The notes below the pieces were generated by a model. That model saw only the letters and a list, made by a program, of their open reading frames with translations, was not told where the DNA came from and did not search any database. Source: Octopus vulgaris (Eukaryota). Taken from it: DNA of 64,000 nucleotides. Shown one piece after another: positions 20,733 through 59,880 of this stretch (position 1 is the first letter of the stretch; each line of letters starts with the position of its first letter). Made by a program: the position numbers and the translations under genes. The stretch is taken from assembly GCA_951406725.2 (NCBI GenBank), contig OX597828.1:67146001-67210000 (forward strand), read 5' to 3'.

Positions 20733-21501
20733 AAGGCAGCGAGCTGGCAGAAACGTTAGCACGCCGCGCGAAATGCTTAGCGGTATTTCGTCTGCCGCTA
20801 CGTTCTGAGTTCAAATTCCTACGAGGTCGACTTTGCCTTTCATCCTTTCAAGGTCGATTAAATGAGTACCAGTTACGCACTGGGGTCGATATAATCGACT
20901 TACTCCGTTTGTCTGTCCTTGTTTGCCCCCTCTGTATTTAGCCCTTTGTGGGTAGTAAAGAAATAGGTATTTCGTCAGCCGCTACGTTATGAGTACAAAT
21001 TCCGCCGAGGTCGACTTTGCATTTCATCCTTTCGGGGTCGATTAAATGAGTACCAGTTACGCACTGGGGTCGATATAATCGACTTAATCCGTTTGTCTGT
21101 CCTTGTTTTCCCCCTCTGTGTTTAGCCCTTTGTGGGTAGTAAAGAAATAGGTATTTCGTCAGCCGCTACGTTATGAGTACAAATTCCGCCGAGGTCGACT
21201 TTGCCTTTCATCCTTTCGAGGTCGATTAAATGAGTACCAGTTACGCACTGGGGTCGATATAATCGACTTAATCCGTTTGTCTGTCCTTGTTTGTCCTCTC
21301 TGTGTTTAGCCCCTTGTGGGTAGTAAAGAAATAGGTATTTCGTCTGCCGTTACGTTCTGAGTTCAAATTCCGCCGAGGTCGACTTTGCCTTGCATCCTTT
21401 CGGGGTCGATAAATTAAGTACTTGTTGCGTACTGGAGTCGATCTAATTGACTGGCACCCTCCTCCAAAATTTCGGCCCTTGTGCCTAGAGTAGAAAAGAT
21501 T
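20733..21501 (+). mobile_element. SINE family B multimer: one head plus tandem 184-bp body units
   Basis: Units start at 20782, 20966, 21150 and 21334 (last one with an alternative 3' tail); flanking attattagtaccc / attattattaccc. Confidence 0.9.
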
Positions 21502-42478: not shown

Positions 42479-42886
42479 AGAGCTGGCAGACACGTTAGCA
42501 CGCCGGGCGAAATGCTTAGCAGTATTTCGTCTGCGTTACGTTGTGAGTTCAAATTCCGCCGAGGTCGACTTTGCCTTTCATCCTTTCGGGGTCGATAAAT
42601 TAAGTACCAGTTAGGCACTGGGGTCGATGTAACCGACTTAATACCTATGTCTGTCCTTGTTTGTCCCCTCTGTGTTTAGCCCCTTGTGGGTAATAAAGAA
42701 ATAGGTATTTCGTCTGCGTTACGTTGTGAGTTCAAATTCCGCCGAGGTTGACTTTGCCTTTCATCCTTTCGGGGTCGATTAAATAAGTATCAGTTACGCA
42801 TTGGGGTCGATATAATCGACTTAATCCGTTTGTCTGTCCTTGTTTGTCCCCTCTATGTTTAGCCCCTTGTGTGTAATAAAGAAATA
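42479..42886 (+). mobile_element. SINE family B dimer
   Basis: Second body unit begins at ~42704 through the same gaaataggtatttc junction as in the 20733 multimer. Confidence 0.88.
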
Positions 42887-43744
42887 GTAATAAGTAATAT
42901 TGACTAGTGAAGACGTGTGGCTTAATGGTTTGGGTATTCGGTTATCAATCGTAAGATCGTGAATTCGATTCCCCGTGACACGTTGTGTCCTATAGCAAGA
43001 CACTTTATTTCACGTTGCTCTAGTCCACTCAACTGGCAAAATTAAGTTGCATCTGTAACGCAAAGGGCCAGCCTTGTTGCATTCTGCGTCACGCTGGATC
43101 TCTTTGAGAAATATGTTAAGGATACGCTTGTCTGTGGACAGCTCAACCCCCCACCCCCAGTTTTACATCCACAGAAACAAGCAACGAAAATACAGCATAC
43201 AGCTACATCAACAATAGCAATAGTTACAACAGCTGCAACAACAAGAAAGACATCGGACAGAGACCCACACCGCAACCCCAAAGGACAGTTCGTCACTAAC
43301 ACCTCAATAAAAAAAAACATCCCTCACCAGTTTCCAGAATATAAGCAAATTCATGCATGCATTTTCCCTCTGGCTAAGGCCTTTTTGACTCCGAGACCAT
43401 GTCCTACGACAGGTCCGGCACAAGTGGTTATCAAGATAAAAAGGGCAAAATAGAGACAAAATGTCTGCCCTCAGCTGAAAATCGGAAGTTTTGCCGAGGT
43501 GAAAAGGAGGTCGATAAGTATAGTACCAGTTTCGCACGGGGTCGATATAATCGACTTAATCCCGTTGTCTCTCCTTGTTTGTCCCCTCTGTGTTTAGCCC
43601 CTTGTGGGCAATAAAGAAATCTATCTATCTATCTATCTATCTTTTGTTTTTTGTTTTTTGTTTTTTTCCATCCCCCAAAAAGAAAAGCTCTACCTTGTAA
43701 CTTGTCCCATCTGTGTGCAGCTCTGTGTGGCCAATAAAGAAACT

Positions 43745-52329: not shown

Positions 52330-53250
52330 GAGTAGATGGAATTATTCAAAATATAGAATATTCCCAGAAGTGTTTTGTGTGGAAATATAGTCAGTTCAGT
52401 CGAAGGTTCGAATGCAGCTGAGGGACTGAAACAAAATATTGCAGTAAAACAGAGTGGAACACCTGTATGTAAGCCAAAACGAAATGAAAAATTGCCCAAA
52501 GTAGATGTTCCGTGGTCGAGACTATCATGGAATGGTTCTTACTACTTAGGGGTAGTTGATAGTTTTTTTCGAAATGGCCTGAAATTCGCAAGTGTAAAAA
52601 AACCAACCTCCTCAACTGTGATAAATTTTTTACACGAATTGTTTGCAAGATTTGACATCCCAGATAAGATAGTGTCTGACAATGGAACGCAATTTGTGTC
52701 TAGCAAATTTTATCAATTTTGTCAAACGTTCGTGGTAGAAGATATAACTACGTCGCCATATGATTGCAGGTCTAACGGACAGGTAGAACGCTTTGTCGAT
52801 ACTTCCAAGAGAGCCCTAAGAAAGTCGAATAAGTAAGTCACGGATGAGGTAGCTCTACAACAATTTTTAAGAGTGTGCCGTGTGACATGAAATCCGAATG
52901 CACCAGCTGATGTTTGCAAGGAAATTAAAATCAGCCTTTGATAAACTGCTACCTGGCAAGAAAATAAAAAGTGCCAGGGAAGACATACCAAGATTCTTTA
53001 AAGTTGGTGAAAAAGTATATATCAGGGGATACAAGAATGGAAAGCAGAGTTGGGAAGATGGTGTAATTACCAAATACATAGGTAAACTGATGTATCGGGT
53101 AAAAAGTAGAAAAGGCATATAAAAGAGACACAGGAACCAACTGAAAAAGAGATTTGTGGAAAGCGAATCAAAAATGTTGGAGGAGCCCATGGAATGGTTG
53201 TGCGATACCTTCCAAGTACCGACGCCACGGCAGGTGATTGAACCCAAGTG
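52330..53250 (+). mobile_element. Gypsy/Ty3 LTR-retrotransposon integrase relic
   Basis: PWSRL..YYLGVVDSF..ELFARFDIPDKIVSDNGTQFVS..SNGQVERFVDT and a C-terminal FKVGEKVYIR..W..GVI segment. Confidence 0.9.
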
Positions 53251-53521
53251 TAGAAGTGAGAGAAAAAGAAAACATACAGTTTCTGAAAATAGTTGTCAAG
53301 CGCAAAAATATTAGAAGAAATGAGGTACTCAGAGATTCGGATGGTTTTATATTTACAGATATTTATTTGTATATTACATGTTTTTATGCATCATATATCA
53401 TATATATATATCATATATTAGCGCTTTCGTCCATTCTAATGGAGTATATATATATATATATTACGAAGATGTACTCGCATAGCAAGTAATTTGATCTGAG
53501 ATCGTGTGCTGAAACGAAAAC

Positions 53522-53766
53522 AATTGCAGCGTGGAAGGTGTTTATAAGCCATTTAAGAAACACACAAAAGCCGTTCGATTCACTTCAACATTTAAGTTTA
53601 ATTTGTCAAAATATTTTCGTCGTGAGATGCAGCACGGATTTTTGTCAGTGAACAGGTCGCGGATTTTAGCGACGAAAATATTTTGACAAATTAAACTTAA
53701 ATGTTGAAGTGAATCGAACGGCTTTTGTGTGTTTCTTAAATGTCTTATAAACACCTTCCACGCTGC

Positions 53767-53770
<4 letters not shown>
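53522..53770. repeat. 101-bp-arm inverted repeat (inverted PLE termini) between (TA)n tracts
   Basis: Arms 53522-53622 and 53670-53770, one mismatch seen; 47-nt spacer. Confidence 0.95.
53641..53690 (+). ncRNA. Minimal type I hammerhead ribozyme, G3-C8 variant
   Basis: tttgtca-GTGAACA-g-gtcgc-ggatttta-gcgac-GAAA-atat-TT-tgacaaa: 7-bp stem I, 5-bp stem II, palindromic stem III aatatt. Confidence 0.75.
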
Positions 53771-53837
<67 letters not shown>

Positions 53838-53840
<3 letters not shown>

Positions 53841-55020
53841 TGGGTGTTTCAAAAAATTGGATATCATTTCGCAATAGCTAATAACTTTGCCAGTTCTTGT
53901 TCAAATGACTTCAAATTTTAACAGAATGTGTAGAAACGGGTCAACATTTTATGTTTAATATTTGATATGTTTATCTTTTCAGGTATAGAAATGGCATTCA
54001 CTGGAAGAGAAAAGGCGTTTTGTGTGTTGGAGTGTGCTCGAACGCAGTCAAACAAGACTGAGCAGCGTCCATTTGTGAGAGAGTTCTCTGTGTGGAAGCA
54101 CTCCGTCGGTTACGACGACGAGGGTTCCGGTTGATCCGAATCAACGGAACAGCCTGCTCGTGAAATTAACGTGTAAGTGGCTGAGCACTCCACAGACACG
54201 TGTACCCTTAACGTAGATCTCGGGGATATTCAGCGTGACACAGGGAGTGACAAGACCGGCTCTTTGAAATACAGGTACAACAGAAACAGGAAGTAAGAGT
54301 GAGAGAAAGTTGTGGTGAAAGAGTACAGCAGGGATCACCACCATCCTTGCTGGAGCCTCGTGGAGCTTTTAGCTGTTTTCGCTCAATAAACACTCACAAC
54401 GCCCGGTCTGGGAATCGAAACCGCGATCCTATGACCGCGAGTCCGCTGCCCTAACCACTGGGCCATTGCGCCTCCACGAGAGAGTTTTCTAAAAAGTCAC
54501 CAACGGCAATGCAGATTTGGATAGGACACAAAAAATTCAAGAGGAAGGCTCGTTTTTCTTTGAGGGAAATATGACCGGCGATGTTTATCTACAAATGCTT
54601 CAGAACTGGTTAATGGACGAGCTCATTGCAAATGAACATGAAGACTTCATTTCTTAACAGGATGGGGCTCCATCTCACTGGAAGCTCACTGTGCGTGCTT
54701 AATTCAGTGACAGTCTGCGAGGGAGATGGATCGAGCGTGCTGGGGATGAAGACAATGTGCTGTTGAAATGGCTGCCACGTTCACCTGACCTGCCACCTTG
54801 CGATTTTTTTTTGTCTGGGGTTATGTGAAAGGCCTGGTCTATGTTCTCCCTTTTCCTGCAAACCTAGAGGAACTCGGACAGGGAATCACTACCGCAGTGG
54901 ATACTGTTACCCAAGGCATGCTGCAGCGTGTTTGGGAGGAGCTCGGCTACCGACTCTCAGCCGTGTCCCAGGCGGTGCGCATATCGAACATTTGTGAAAT
55001 CGCCCATGGAATCCGCATAC
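53838..55020 (+). mobile_element. Internally deleted Tc1/mariner (DD41D-like group) interrupted by SINEs
   Basis: TA+ctgggtgtttcaaaaa end; MAFTGREKAFCVLECART N-terminus; QDGAPSHW..WLPRSPDLPPCDFF. Confidence 0.85.
54090..54477 (-). mobile_element. SINE family A, full length
   Basis: 13-bp TSD gagagagttctct/gagagagttttct at 54077-54089 and 54478-54490. Confidence 0.92.
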
Positions 55021-55424
55021 CTCTCTTTACTTGTTTCAGTCATTTGACTGTGGCCATGCTGGAGCGCCGCCTTTAGTCGAGCAACTCGACCCCAGGACTT
55101 ATTCTTTGTAAGCCCAGTACTTATTCTTTCGGTCTCTTTTGCCGAACCGCTAAGTGACGGGGACGTAAACACACCAGCATCGGTTGTCAAGCAATGCTAG
55201 GGGGTACAAACACAGACACACAAACATACACACACTTATATATATATATATACATATATACGACGGGCTTCTCTCAGTTTCCATCTACCAAATCCACTCA
55301 CAAGGCATTGGTCGGCCTGAGACTATAGCAGAAGACACTTGCCCAAGGTGCCACGCAATGGGACTGAACCCGGAACCATGTGGTTGGTAAGAAAGCTACT
55401 TACCACACAGCCACTCCTGCGCCT
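55021..55424 (-). mobile_element. SINE family C, full length
   Basis: Reverse complement of 60882-61279. Confidence 0.9.
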
Positions 55425-55744
55425 ACCTTTGAATTTCTCATTCAAATTTTGAGGAATAACTCTTAGGTTCCTCAACATTAAGCCTGTTTAGTTTCATTTG
55501 CTTTGACTATGTAGTTTCTGTGATATTTACATCTCAAATGGTACCAAATTCTTTATCACGGAGGTGTGAGTTCGAGTCTCATAGCCGGCCGCCAACACTT
55601 TTTTCTGCAAAATAGAGGTAGCTTATCCTGTTCAGGCTATATTGTTAGCATTATCCCGCATTTGAGAATTTAAAATCACTTCTTTAACTTTCTAAGGCAT
55701 CTCAACGCTTCTAAAGCGTTGTTTACGTTCATCGTAATTTGAAT

Positions 55745-56075
55745 ATACATACATACAAACATACATACATACATACATACATAGATACATGCATGCATGC
55801 ATACATACATACATACATACATACATACATACATGCATGCATGCATACATACATAATACATACATGCATGCATGCATGCATACATACATACATACATGCA
55901 TGCATGCATGCATACATACATACATGTATACATACATACATACATGCATGCATGCATACATACATACATACATACATACATACATACATACACACATACA
56001 TACATACATACATACATACATACATACATACATACATACATACATACATACATACATACATACGTACATACATAC
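55745..56075. repeat. (TACA)n/(TGCA) tetranucleotide microsatellite
   Basis: Directly visible. Confidence 0.95.
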
Positions 56076-56084
56076 TGACTGGAA

Positions 56085-57015
56085 CTTCTGGTCAGCAGAG
56101 TGCTGTTTCATCATCTGAACGCAGATAGCTTTTCCGCCCAGCTTTCGTTCTGAAGGAGCGTTCACTGACGTGACACTCAATTTTCTTTTCAGTACAAACG
56201 TACAGCAGTCCCCGTAGTAGTTGAACCATCTCACAAGCATCTCGGTTTCTCCCTGGTTCATGTGACTTTAGATGCCAGACAAATCCAGCTCTGGAGAGAA
56301 GTAATCGTCCAAACGCATTGCACTTCAATAGCTGCTGGGTTTCTGTTTCGGTAGACACTGCACTTGGGTCTCGCTTATTGAGTGAACGCTTCAAAGTAGC
56401 AAACTCCATTCGCCTTTGTACCTCTACATAATAGTCTTTCTCTGTAATATACGTCTTTCTACCAATATCTTCCAGCTCAACTAGATATCCATATCTGCAT
56501 GTATATAAAGTGTGGCGAGTTTACATGATGGCTGCCCCCTCGTTATCGAGTATGACCATTACACGAAGCTTAACTGTTATTGGTGCTGTGATCGAATGCG
56601 ACTTTTTAGCCCAGCTAAAGATCTACAATGTCTTGTACAGAATTGGCAATTAATACCTTTACCGGCAATAGCCGGCTGTAGTTGTAACTGGGCTTCGTGT
56701 ACCTTTGCATGTCGTTTAAGTCCTCCCTTCTACATACCTGGCAGATAGGATTACTATGGTGTGTAACACCACCACCAGTGGCCAGGTTGTCACTCATCTG
56801 TCTCGCTTTATGACTACTAAGATGACTCTTGAGTCCAGCTTTACTGAGGCAGGGTCTTGCACAGACACTGCATGTCAGCATCATAGGAAGTACTCTTCCC
56901 ATCTGGAAGTGTAACAGCGATGCCCTTCCTGACATCCCTCCTTACATTCTCATGCGCAACTCGAGATTTCTCAAAAGTAGCTGTTCCCTCGCGCACAATC
57001 CTTTTCCACCTGCTA
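56085..57015 (-). mobile_element. RTE-type LINE 3' ends with tandem C2H2 zinc-finger remnants
   Basis: LLSRAGFVWHLKSH, CSVCARPCLSKAGLKSHLSSH and RWKRIVREGTATFE in minus-strand ORFs. Confidence 0.7.
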
Positions 57016-57214
57016 TGCACACATACATGCATGCATACATGCACTCATACATGCATACATACATACATACATACATACATACACACATACTTACATACGT
57101 ACTTACATACATACATACTTACGTACATACATACATACATACATACATACATACATACATACATACATACATACATACATACATACATACATGATTATGA
57201 TGACAGTAGCAGCA

Positions 57215-57805
57215 GTGACCGTGCATGAGGTTACTGCAGCTGCGGGCTTCATGCTTGCCGTCGCGCCCTCCAAATCAACCGGGCATCTGAAAGTCGCCTG
57301 ACCAGCAATTGGAAAGCCTAAAATTTTAGACCCAATAAGGTTTGCACAGCAACTCTAAGATCCTCTTCAGCTTATTGACTTGATCCAGACACAAGTTAAG
57401 GCAAGATAACCGGTGCCAATATGGGTTGTAAGCACATGAATGTGGGAACGCCGTGAATCTCAAGTGCAAGTAAAATATTCCCAAAATGTTCAATGCCATT
57501 CCCTGCATATGTGGTTTTAGATCAGAGTGACCTTTCTCTAAGGCATGCTTCAACAAAAGCAGGTCGGACATCGACCCAGGGTTTCTGAAGGCTTGTGCTA
57601 TTGCTAGATAGTCGTTGACCTAACATTACGTTCATCCGTCCTTGTGACAGGCATTGCTTTTAGTCCGGCTAGATTTCTAGCGACCCTCTGCACCAGGTAA
57701 CCCTAATGTTGTTACTGGTTTAGTCGCCGACGACCCGACCATACAACAGGTTGTACTGGATTCCATGTAACCTGTAACATTCATGAGAGACCTCACAGGT
57801 AACTT
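57215..57805 (-). mobile_element. Possible decayed RLE-type (R2-like) LINE C-terminus
   Basis: Weak CCHC-knuckle-like (TLG-YLVQR..CH) and PD-like remnants only. Confidence 0.3.
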
Positions 57806-57895
57806 GACACATCCATCCATCCATCTATCTATATACACGCACACACGCACGCACACCCACACATGCACGCACACACATGCATTTCGTATACACTT

Positions 57896-57948
<53 letters not shown>

Positions 57949-58017
57949 TGTGACCGTGTGTGTATCGTTGGCAATTTTCTTTCTCTGTCTTCTCTTCCTT
58001 GGACCTTTCCTTCTTCT

Positions 58018-58056
58018 ATGTTTCTGACGAAGAGCTCCGCTCGAAACGTTAAATTC
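58018..58056 (+). ncRNA. Minimal type I hammerhead motif (C3-G8) in a TA-flanked PLE terminus (~57950-58152)
   Basis: CTGACGA-a-gagc-tcc-gctc-GAAA-cgTTA; palindromic stem III aacgtt; stem I partly mismatched. Confidence 0.7.
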
Positions 58057-58163
58057 TCCTTCTTTCTTTCCTTTCCTGAGCGTCCAATAACACTATACTT
58101 GTTCCACGTCCTCGGGTTCTTGTGTTTTCTCTTTGTTCATGTTTGGAGTAACTATATATATAT

Positions 58164-58623
58164 ATAGTTATCGCCATACTAATATGGCATTCTTATAAAA
58201 ATAAGAAAAAAGCTGTCCGCTTATTAGCTCCATGAGGCCATCGCCTTAAGTTACCTATTTGATACACAAACTGTATCCATATAACCTTCGAACAAGGGAG
58301 GTCAGTCGCTCCACACTACTTGACCGGCAGCTACAGACGCGTTTCGGAGTATTGCCCCTTTTCAATAAAACCATCGAACAGAGATTGTCGGAAGCGACAC
58401 CTACTGGCTGGCTACGCTGCATTGAAAAGGGGCAATACTCCGAAACGCGTCTGTAGCTACCGGTCAAGTAGTGTGGAGCGACTGACCTCCCTTGTTCGAA
58501 GGTTATATGGATACAGTTTGTGTATCAAATAGCTAACTTAAGGCGATGGCCTCATGGAGCTAATAAGCGGACAACTTTTTTCTTATTTTTATAAGAATGC
58601 CATATTAGTATGGCGATAACTAT
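58164..58623. repeat. 203-bp-arm inverted repeat (inverted PLE termini) between (TA)n tracts
   Basis: Arms 58164-58366 and 58421-58623, three mismatches seen; 54-nt spacer. Confidence 0.97.
58416..58457 (+). ncRNA. Minimal type I hammerhead ribozyme, U3-A8 variant
   Basis: gctgca-TTGAAAA-gggg-caata-ctcc-GAAA-cgcG-TC-tgtagc; 6-bp stem I, palindromic stem III acgcgt, GUC triplet. Confidence 0.78.
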
Positions 58624-58683
58624 TATTTTCCGGGAACGCTGCCGCTGTTCTCTTTTAGAGAGACTTAGTTATTTTAATATTTC

Positions 58684-58765
<82 letters not shown>

Positions 58766-59344
58766 TATTTGTGTCACAATGAAAATTATAAATTTGAACT
58801 CGGACGTATATATGTGCATCTGTGGATCTTAATGTCGTGTAAACAGAATGCTTTTATTTCATATTTCGTATGTATATGCAGATATTTAACACTTTGCATG
58901 GTATTGTAGTACTATTGTGACTATATTGCTAATAATGGAATCTATGTATTGTTTTTCTAGTATTAGCGTTATTAATAATAATATGAATGATGATATTGGT
59001 AGCATTAGTGGTAATGACAATGATAATGATGCTAACATTAATGACATTTTGGAAATTAATAAGAATTAATATAATGTACTCTTGACTCTGTATATCTGCA
59101 TTTAGGTATTAATATGTGTATGTTTTTCTACATTGTAATTATCACAATATTAAGTTGATAAACTGTAACATTGAATGTGGAACATATGTATGTTTATTGA
59201 TTTATATTATTTATATCATTATGTATATGTATATTTATATGTATAGGAGTATGAGTATATGCATTCATATGTATATGTATATGTTTTATTATGGGTATGT
59301 ACCCACACCTATAAGACTGTATGTAATCTGATTTGTATCACATA

Positions 59345-59471
59345 ATCTCCGAAGAGGCCTTAGGATATTTTTGTAAATGTCTCATTTATAACTCCATATT
59401 GACCTACCATAAATGGCTAATATAAGTAAAATGAGACATACTTATCTGCATGGCCGAAACAGCTGTAAGAT
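59345..59471 (+). ncRNA. Type I hammerhead motif with long stem II insertion
   Basis: atct-CCGAAGA-ggcc-(92 nt including atgtctcattt/aaatgagacat)-ggcc-GAAAC-agct-GTA-agat. Confidence 0.68.
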
Positions 59472-59880
59472 GTAGTCTATATTTATATTTATATTTACTT
59501 ATATTTATATTCTCTTATACATATTGTACTTATTGTATCATATTACTCCTTTATGTACACTGTTTTGTTCTACATTATTATGTTTCACCTTATAGTTTCT
59601 TATGTGGTGGTTTAATAAAGTATGTGATTGGGTATTATCTGGTAATTGATATTTGATTTCGATGTATTTCTCTATTTTCTTATTTTGTATTATGAATTTT
59701 TGGTAAAACATTTTACCTTTGCCCATATGATACAGTAAATGAATTAATTGCATCGCAATTCTTAACATTTATGTATTAACTTTGTTGGGTACTTCACTAG
59801 CAGTATATTGGATATATGTTATCCCATGGAGGGTTGCATTTACAACCCCTATCTCAATTTGTAACTATATATATATATGA

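What the first reader, a model, noticed from the sequence alone, without database searches (positions are those of the whole stretch)
53641..59471. Unrelated hammerhead ribozymes with covarying catalytic 3-8 pair (C-G, U-A, G-C) within 6 kb
Seen: four minimal type I hammerhead folds with unrelated flanks and cores GTGAACA (53648), CTGACGA (58024), TTGAAAA (58422) and CCGAAGA (59349). Each is followed by stem II, GAAA, a palindromic stem III and an NUH triplet. Known: positions 3 and 8 form a tertiary Watson-Crick pair needed for catalysis, and minimal hammerheads with palindromic stem III mark Penelope-like element termini and are thought to act as dimers. Inference: the non-canonical cores all preserve 3-8 pairing, which argues for selection on cleavage rather than decay. 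This points to several (TA)n-associated ribozyme-bearing retroelement families that a CUGANGA-only search would miss.
Basis: partly seen in the sequence, partly recalled or inferred. Interest (0 to 1): 0.75.

Follow-up and report, generated by a model that had tools for sequence, protein, structure and literature searches.

The report
Variant-core hammerheads in Penelope-type repeats
These four motifs are real hammerhead-ribozyme folds from four abundant jumping-gene families that pile up in the same (TA)n tracts; two families carry a swapped core base pair (one swap already published, one not found in the papers searched), which likely keeps self-cutting alive, but cutting is untested and related families also spread with a wobble or mismatched pair.

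Summary
Confirmed. Each belongs to a repeat family whose copies share its core, so these are not local mutations. F1 (G3-C8) and F4 (C3-G8, U4C, 100-nt stem II) are 3' ends of Penelope-like elements with RT + GIY-YIG; F4's partner is Hydra-clade. F2 (canonical) probably is too. F3 (U3-A8) is a 362-nt tandem retrozyme with full, not minimal, architecture. In 920 kb of blind genome sample, 15 of 16 hits pair 3-8 by Watson-Crick; only 3 of the 15 match CUGANGA. Against a strict rule: a young 355-nt family has U3·G8 (29 of 30 loci), and 30 of 4,861 retrozyme-type motifs have C3·A8. U3-A8 is published (Perreault 2011; Cervera 2014); natural G3-C8 was not found in print, but three key papers were unavailable. 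The 6-kb cluster reflects (TA)n targeting, and two window copies are locked by inverted arms. No cleavage was shown. The scan noted G3-C8 and U3-A8 families before, elsewhere in this genome.

The parts
53455..53622 (-). F1 inverted arm: reverse copy of the element's 3' end, including the extra ~60-nt tail; lacks the 5' half of the hammerhead
   Evidence: 98.8% to the family reference
53625..53770 (+). F1 direct arm: 3' pLTR fragment of an RT + GIY-YIG Penelope-like element; starts at a splice-acceptor-like AG and ends in (TA)n
53641..53690 (+). F1 minimal type I hammerhead fold: G3-C8 core (53648-53654), palindrome AATATT, UUU triplet, predicted cut after 53683
53770..53839 (.). (TA)35 target tract at the F1 3' end
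57948..58158 (+). F2 element: ~200-nt 3' end of a very abundant family, probably from a Neptune-type PLE; between (TA)n tracts
58020..58054 (+). F2 minimal hammerhead fold: canonical C3-G8 core (58024-58030), palindrome ACGT, predicted cut after 58050
58164..58366 (-). F3 inverted arm (unit positions 362 to 202); pairs with the whole hammerhead core of the direct arm
58364..58689 (+). F3 direct arm: 326 nt of a 362-nt tandem retrozyme unit (unit positions 305 to 268)
58416..58457 (+). F3 type I hammerhead fold of retrozyme architecture: U3-A8 core (58422-58428), palindrome ACGCGT, GUC triplet, predicted cut after 58451
58687..58762 (.). (TA)38 tract between F3 and F4
58760..59865 (+). F4 element: ~1.1-kb 3' end of a Hydra-clade PLE; ends in (TA)n at 59866
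59345..59471 (+). F4 hammerhead fold: C3-G8 with U4C (59349-59355), 100-nt stem-loop II, palindrome ACAGCTGT, predicted cut after 59467

Best explanation
The four motifs are hammerhead folds carried by four independent Penelope-type retroelement families that insert into (TA)n, and the compensated cores (G3-C8, U3-A8) are family-wide states likely kept because the master elements' RNAs likely still self-cleave, predicted to do so as dimers through the palindromic stem III. SHOWN: folds, family-wide cores, link of F1 and F4 to RT + C-terminal GIY-YIG ORFs, 362-nt head-to-tail arrays of F3, fixed pairs of 3' ends at (TA)n, inverted 5' arms, scattered retrozyme 5' ends that read through the cut site. 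INFERRED: transcripts with two ribozyme copies (tandem pLTRs or tandem units) dimerise, cut at H17, are ligated to circles, and are copied by the PLE RT primed at a GIY-YIG nick in (TA)n from two start sites about 45-60 nt apart, giving direct plus inverted arms; F3 borrows a PLE enzyme. Selection acts on the master lineages and is tolerant: Watson-Crick pairs predominate, U·G is viable, C·A is rare. The window copies themselves are single, and F1 and F3 are predicted to be locked in long hairpins, so they are most likely inactive debris.
For: Family-wide cores: G3-C8 in 30 of 30 F1 loci, U3-A8 30 of 30 F3, C3-G8 27 of 30 F2 and 30 of 30 F4 (loci chosen by likeness to the query, and F3 loci overlap arrays). 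Independent of the motif: G3-C8 in 29 of 29 aligned cores in loci found with GIY-YIG DNA, 0.4-1.4 kb behind the ORF end in 23 of 30 such loci. F4 follows RT + GIY-YIG in L171 with the Hydra marks DKT, CxCX5C, CxxC/CxH. Blind sample of 92 x 10 kb: 16 hits = 10 C-G, 3 G-C, 2 U-A, 1 A-G; shuffles 1.17 in all, 0.42 Watson-Crick. Retrozyme-type pattern with free N3/N8: 4,861 matches, control 0; my hand count of the first 100 listed = 50 U-A, 35 C-G, 14 U·G, 1 C·A. Position 7 and stems I/II change between subfamilies, with compensatory changes in 7 of 29 predicted pairs. F3 3' ends fall at unit 202-208 (12 of 26) or 261-268 (14 of 26); 0 of 28 5' ends at the cut. (TA)3 follows within 14 nt in 45 of 54 F2 ends, 19 of 21 and 20 of 22 F4 ends, 13 of 15 and 15 of 23 F3 ends, 22 of 40 and 21 of 38 F1 ends. 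2 of 30 F1 loci have an arm starting on the first base after the predicted cut (weak). Literature: PLE min-HHRs and U3-A8 (PMC4209133), C3G rescues G8C in part (PMC8495972), inverted arms and tails (PMC8557442), retrozyme circles (PMC7229834).
Against: No cleavage data. A young tandem family (F5: 355-nt unit, most copies 98-100% alike) has U3·G8 in 29 of 30 loci. 30 of 4,861 motifs are C3·A8; two of them at separate loci are 87% alike, and both arms of one insertion carry it, so small old mismatch lineages existed; the exact pattern undercounts old families. An abundant F2-like family has A6U: CTGTNGA in 20 of the 27 matches shown. F1 combines G3-C8, a UUU triplet and a nearly neutral stem III duplex (-0.2 kcal/mol), so it may be very slow. 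Min-HHRs cleave poorly in vitro even as dimers (PMC4209133). Naiads thrive without canonical hammerheads (PMC8557442). The blind-sample hits represent only about six families, so they are not 15 independent events. The F2-ORF link rests on two loci. No autonomous partner was identified for F3.
Confidence: 0.7

Rival explanations
1. Relaxed or relic ribozymes: cleavage is no longer needed for mobilisation; variant cores rose by hitch-hiking on successful master copies, and the paired states are an inheritance from earlier selection.
For: U3·G8 family amplifying now; C3·A8 lineages; A6U family; weak F1 stem III and UUU triplet; nearly all insertions read through the cut site; low in vitro activity of min-HHRs (PMC4209133).
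Against: G5, A6, A9, GAAA, U16.1, palindrome and stems stay intact across subfamilies while N7 and stem bases vary with compensation; G3-C8 needs two transversions that restore pairing; 15 of 16 blind hits are Watson-Crick.
Confidence: 0.18
2. The fold is kept as a structure recognised by the PLE protein or as a dimerisation signal, not for chemistry.
For: PMC4209133 leaves functions other than cleavage open; PMC8557442 calls HHR function in EN+ PLEs unclear; stems and palindromes are better kept than 3/8 identity.
Against: The 3-8 pair is a tertiary contact of the catalytically active conformation (PMC3884650, introduction); its covariation is expected for cleavage, less so for a binding site.
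Confidence: 0.09
3. The four motifs form one host-selected cluster acting together at this locus.
For: Four intact motifs in 5.8 kb against 0.1 expected at the blind-sample density (Poisson 3e-6; for the whole 64-kb window 0.02); all on one strand.
Against: The window was picked for this feature, so the figure is post hoc. F2, F3 and F4 abut one another through (TA)n tracts that all families target. The palindromes differ, so they cannot form mixed dimers. F1 and F3 are predicted to be locked in 101- and 203-bp hairpins. The copies are ordinary family members, 94-99% like their best relatives.
Confidence: 0.03

Closest known systems
Minimal type I hammerheads in pLTRs of metazoan Penelope-like elements (Cervera & de la Pena 2014, PMC4209133; read parts 1-2 of 4, supplement searched, one file not searchable)
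   Same: F1, F2: short stem I, extra base before stem II, palindromic stem III, 3' end of an RT + GIY-YIG element, single or inverted copies; U3-A8 already reported there for Schistosoma Cercyon elements; an intron end next to helix I is reported for D. virilis Penelope.
   Different: F1 has G3-C8, not reported in that text or in the searchable supplement file; F4 has U4C and a 100-nt stem-loop II.
Hydra-clade PLEs (Craig et al. 2021, PMC8557442; passages read, supplement searched)
   Same: F4's partner ORF has DKT, CxCX5C, CxxC and CxH, a C-terminal GIY-YIG, (TA)n targeting, partial-tandem and inverted copies.
   Different: Described there with canonical HHRs; here the core is CCGAAGA with a long stem II that short-loop descriptors would miss.
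Animal non-LTR retrozymes (Cervera & de la Pena 2020, PMC7229834, passages; Li et al. 2026, bioRxiv 10.64898/2026.07.22.740005, parts 1-2 of 5)
   Same: F3: non-coding 362-nt head-to-tail unit (mussel units are 350-390 bp), type I hammerhead with 6-bp stem I and 4-bp stem II, highly self-paired unit, proposed PLE origin.
   Different: U3-A8 core; related families with C3-G8, U3·G8 and rare C3·A8; insertions show PLE-type inverted arms and two fixed 3' ends. Circles and cleavage are shown there, not here.
Natural and engineered 3-8 core variants (Perreault et al. 2011, PMC3088659, sections 8, 9, 17; PMC8495972, PMC3884650, PMC7151607, passages)
   Same: U3-A8 covariation reported in nature in 2011; G3-C8 known as a laboratory double mutant with partial rescue; a U3/G8 core with a two-base insertion is known from a halophile source.
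   Different: G3-C8 and plain U3·G8 as the majority state of high-copy animal retroelement families were not found in the searches.

Membership tests
Type I hammerhead ribozyme | Three-helix junction with G5-A6, A9, G12-A13-A14, A15.1-U16.1, H17 | tested here: met
   All four motifs; kept in most family copies.
Type I hammerhead ribozyme | Watson-Crick pair between positions 3 and 8 | tested here: met
   G-C, C-G, U-A, C-G in the four window families. Not met in the related family F5 (U·G).
Type I hammerhead ribozyme | Site-specific self-cleavage after H17 (monomer or dimer) | not testable with these tools
   Only contigs of guessed-RNA runs were available; 2 of 30 F1 loci start at the cut, too few to count as a test.
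EN+ Penelope-like element 3' pLTR (F1, F4) | Motif lies downstream of an RT + C-terminal GIY-YIG ORF in full-length relatives | tested here: met
   F1: 23 of 30 GIY-found loci, 558-aa open stretch in L235; F4: L171, L173. Pfam gave only a weak GIY-YIG hit for F4's partner (E 0.00065, below cut-off) and none for F1's; a 55%-identical relative of F1's protein is named RT-domain protein and a weaker one GIY-YIG protein.
EN+ Penelope-like element 3' pLTR (F2) | Motif lies downstream of an RT + GIY-YIG ORF | tested here: inconclusive
   One GIY-YIG fragment with a Cys linker (L255), whose DNA also lies upstream of the F2 extension in L258; no RT seen.
EN+ Penelope-like element | Partial-tandem and inverted 5' copies with a tail at one end | tested here: met
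   F1 arms end at about +125 or +185; F4 tandem in L171 and inverted in L121; F3 and F5 the same.
Hydra clade (F4) | DKT, CxCX5C linker, CxxC/CxH around E and N, (TA)n target | tested here: met
   Motifs read in L171/L173 translations against the text of PMC8557442; no tree was built.
Neptune or Nematis clade (F1) | CX2-5CxxC linker before a C-terminal GIY-YIG; placement in the RT tree | tested here: inconclusive
   CX3CxxC linker present; no reference proteins were available to tell the two clades apart (one search found none).
Non-LTR retrozyme (F3) | Non-coding 170-400-nt tandem unit with a type I hammerhead in every unit | tested here: met
   362-nt units, arrays of up to 9 listed copies, 99% alike.
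Non-LTR retrozyme (F3) | Canonical architecture: 6-bp stem I, internal loop, 4-bp stem II | tested here: met
   Consensus fold of 5 subfamily copies, 7 of 29 pairs with compensatory changes.
Non-LTR retrozyme (F3) | Accumulates as circular RNA | not testable with these tools
   A tandem genomic junction and a circle give the same contig.

The most novel reading that the evidence does not exclude
This genome holds a living natural series of the hammerhead's 3-8 pair: G3-C8 as the fixed core of a roughly 10,000-copy Penelope-like family, and C3-G8, U3·G8 and U3-A8 within one retrozyme lineage, with U·G as an active, amplifying intermediate. All of these cleave in vivo, and about four in five intact hammerheads here are invisible to the standard CUGANGA descriptor. 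In the G3-C8 family a splice acceptor 20 nt before the core makes short spliced RNAs the main template for new copies.
Probability: 0.35. Interest if true: 0.6.

Novelty: new variant of a known kind. Interest (0 to 1): 0.42.

Why it matters
The role of hammerheads in Penelope-like elements is open (PMC8557442). Natural compensated cores give ready-made constructs to ask whether cleavage is what selection keeps, and the U·G family shows a possible path across the 3-8 fitness valley. In practice, descriptor searches undercount: 12 of 15 intact paired motifs in a blind sample fail CUGANGA (7 by U4C, 5 by the 3-8 swap), out of roughly 45,000 per genome. The system itself (PLE hammerheads, retrozymes, U3-A8) is known, and this locus is ordinary repeat debris.

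Tried and rejected
Rfam scan at E<=10 showed no hammerhead in the 150 of 398 rows printed. Expression: no RNA holder listed; contigs of four guessed-RNA runs cover the F3 unit but cannot show ends, strand or circles; not used as evidence. A pile-up of 5' ends at the cut site was not found for F3 (0 of 28) or F5 (0 of 47; nearest 3 nt away). The apparent F1 pile-up at +21 was rejected as an alignment artefact of a variant loop II. A splice donor matching the recurrent TGAG before the F1 acceptor was not found in 23 UTRs or in L235. A full-length F1 with an upstream pLTR was not found in 4 stretches. The GIY-YIG ORF beside L094 turned out to belong to a different PLE. PDB search with the F1 protein gave nothing useful. 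One search used wrong coordinates and a wrong row; both were redone. Not held, so unseen: Lunse et al. 2017 (PMC5785218), Przybilski & Hammann 2007 (PMC1986816), Martick & Scott 2006 (PMC4447102). The alignment dataset of Perreault 2011 did not respond even to a positive-control motif, so its silence on G3-C8 means nothing. bioRxiv supplements were not consulted (closed). An A3-U8 family was not searched for genome-wide; none appeared among 16 blind hits.
Full report
OBSERVATION. The four cores lie where stated. A scan that frees positions 3 and 8 returns these four hits and no other on both strands of the 64-kb window, against 0.3 per shuffled window. Two have a non-canonical 3-8 pair (F1 G-C at 53648, F3 U-A at 58422). 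F2 (58024) is canonical; F4 (59349) is C-G with U4C and a 100-nt stem-loop II. The window lies in a 2.8-Gb, microsatellite-rich animal genome (G000:C15). Earlier scan notes call it octopus, and a 55%-identical relative of the F1 protein is named from Octopus.

FAMILIES. Each motif belongs to a dispersed repeat (40 candidates scored of 178, 936, 3,171 and 1,565, which are lower bounds). The 3-8 state of the window copy is the family state: 30 of 30 F1 loci, 30 of 30 F3, 27 of 30 F2, 30 of 30 F4. These loci were chosen by likeness to the query, and several F3 loci overlap one array. Less biased checks agree: F1 loci found with coding DNA show G3-C8 in 29 of 29 aligned cores, 4 further segments lacking the core; F2 loci found with upstream DNA show C3-G8 in 24 of 26 cores; in 920 kb of blind sample F1 is G-C in 3 of 3, F3-type U-A in 3 of 3, F2 C-G in 11 of 12, F4 C-G in 2 of 2.

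WHAT THEY ARE. F1 is the 3' end of a Penelope-like element: the motif lies 0.4-1.4 kb behind an RT + Cys-linker + GIY-YIG ORF in 23 of 30 loci; Neptune or Nematis type, not resolved. Four F1 insertions in 920 kb suggest on the order of 10,000 copies. F4 follows an RT + GIY-YIG ORF in partial tandem (L171), with the DKT, CxCX5C, CxxC and CxH marks that Craig et al. give for the Hydra clade. F2 probably ends a Neptune-type element, but the link rests on two loci. F3 is different: a 362-nt non-coding unit in head-to-tail arrays, 99% alike, with a 6-bp stem I, a UAC/U internal loop, an outer helix and a 4-bp stem II, with compensatory changes in 7 of 29 pairs among five subfamily copies. That is the retrozyme architecture (PMC7229834), not a minimal motif. 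I found no autonomous partner for F3.

INSERTION GEOMETRY. All families end in (TA)n: 45 of 54 F2 ends, 39 of 43 F4 ends, 28 of 38 F3 ends and 43 of 78 F1 ends have (TA)3 within 14 nt. F3 3' ends fall at two fixed unit positions about 60 nt apart (12 and 14 of 26), usually one per arm of an inverted pair; 5' ends are scattered, none of 28 at the cut. This matches the inverted arms and tails described for PLEs (PMC8557442, passages) and fits copying of a circular or multimeric RNA by a PLE enzyme (inference). In the window, F2, F3 and F4 abut through (TA)n tracts, which explains most of the cluster; four hits in 64 kb against 1.0 expected has Poisson P 0.02 and is post hoc. The F1 and F3 copies carry 101- and 203-nt inverted arms that are predicted to fold over the motif, so these copies are probably inactive.

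IS THE PAIR SELECTED? For: in 92 blind 10-kb stretches the scan gave 16 hits, 10 C-G, 3 G-C, 2 U-A, 1 A-G; shuffles gave 1.17 in all and 0.42 Watson-Crick. They stand for about six families, not 15 events. Only 3 of the 15 match CUGANGA. A genome-wide retrozyme-type pattern with free 3 and 8 gave 4,861 matches and 0 for the reversed control; by hand count the first 100 rows are 50 U-A, 35 C-G, 14 U·G, 1 C·A, array units counted singly. Against: family F5 (355-nt tandem unit; 1,831 candidates; most listed copies 98-100% alike) has U3·G8 in 29 of 30 loci. It is 72-73% identical over about 290 nt to a C3-G8 family and weakly related to F3 (60% over 162 nt, E 0.005), and C-G, U·G and U-A all occur with the same stems. 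C3·A8 occurs 30 times, including two 87%-alike loci and both arms of one old insertion. A common F2-like family has A6U. So pairing is strongly favoured but not absolute, and the direction of change is not established.

ACTIVITY. Nothing here shows cleavage. Stem III homoduplex energies are -0.2 (F1), -1.7 (F2), -7.5 (F3) and -11.1 (F4) kcal/mol; F1 also has a UUU triplet, so the G3-C8 ribozyme may be very slow. Two of 30 F1 loci have an arm that starts on the first base after the predicted cut (L307 cleanly against (TA)n, L331 with one base of microhomology), a weak hint. Sequencing runs were uninformative.

AN EXTRA FEATURE. In long F1 copies a branch-point-like CTAAC, a pyrimidine tract and CAG end 21 nt before G3 (30 of 75 distinct contexts). 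Among 30 loci found by the 3' tail, 12 have their furthest 5' end at -19 to -24 and 29 go no further; the window copy starts there too. This resembles the intron that ends at helix I in D. virilis Penelope (PMC4209133) and suggests spliced short templates; the upstream exon was not found. An earlier scan note (e1-8670049) proposes splicing onto host exons; I did not test that.

KNOWN AND NEW. Minimal hammerheads in PLE pLTRs, palindromic stem III, dimers with low activity and U3-A8 are published (PMC4209133, parts 1-2 of 4; PMC3088659, section 8). G3-C8 appears in what I read only as a laboratory mutant with partial rescue (PMC8495972, PMC3884650, passages). Searches for natural G3-C8 or U3·G8 (context searches; supplement searches) found none except a halophile U3/G8 core with a two-base insertion (PMC7151607, passage). 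Lunse 2017, Przybilski & Hammann 2007 and Martick & Scott 2006 were not held, one supplement file of PMC4209133 was not searchable, and the Perreault alignments did not respond to a control, so absence from print is not established. The scan has already noted G3-C8 PLE families, U3-A8 retrozymes and four versions of the pair in this genome; these are unchecked notes and not independent support.

VERDICT. Real, correctly observed, and mostly explained by known biology. The new element is the family-wide G3-C8 core and the C-G / U·G / U-A series in one retrozyme lineage, both untested. New variant of a known kind; interest 0.42.

Noticed in passing
L272-L301 (e.g. L283; G000:C2:152134564-152137783): Family F5: young 355-nt tandem retrozyme with a U3·G8 core and two fixed 3' ends (unit 208 and about 252); homologous to a C3-G8 family (L234).
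   Followed up: yes
L076, L106, L140, L255, L276 and others: Abundant F2-like family with core CTGTNGA: A6 replaced by U while position 7 varies and C3-G8, stem II and GAAACGT stay. Not present in the window.
   Followed up: partly
F1 family, 21 nt before G3 (e.g. L007:1480-1505); window 53625: Branch-point, pyrimidine tract and CAG acceptor; short copies pile up at this point, several preceded by TGAG; no donor found.
   Followed up: partly
F3 unit positions about 269-310 (e.g. L056); just beyond the end of the window copy at 58689: A second, degenerate hammerhead-like motif inside the 362-nt unit: same U3-A8 heptamer, short stem II, GAAA, CTAG palindrome, but no U16.1. One of the two fixed 3' ends lies right before it.
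   Followed up: no
L123:6277 region; L159, L030, L183, L256: Further hammerheads with long stem II loops (54-80 nt) and C3-G8 cores; the one in L123 follows a Hydra-like ORF.
   Followed up: partly
L377/L378, L380/L381: Old retrozyme copies with a C3·A8 mismatch shared between arms or loci.
   Followed up: partly
window 52357-53300: Decayed LTR-retrotransposon integrase fragment (Pfam rve, E 2e-10).
   Followed up: partly
window 53840-55000: Fragment that looks like a Tc1/mariner transposase, interrupted by short repeats (judged by eye; no Pfam hit).
   Followed up: partly
window 56080-57800, minus strand: Broken LINE-like coding fragments split by (CATA)n tracts (judged by eye; no Pfam hit for the piece tested).
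   Followed up: partly
window 20782-21452 and 42522-42887: Tandem arrays of a 183-184-nt unit (3.6 and 2.0 copies) of a very common repeat also seen in many loci.
   Followed up: no
L171, L121, L123: Different PLE families nested beside one another or in large inverted arrangements (1.1-1.7-kb arms).
   Followed up: partly
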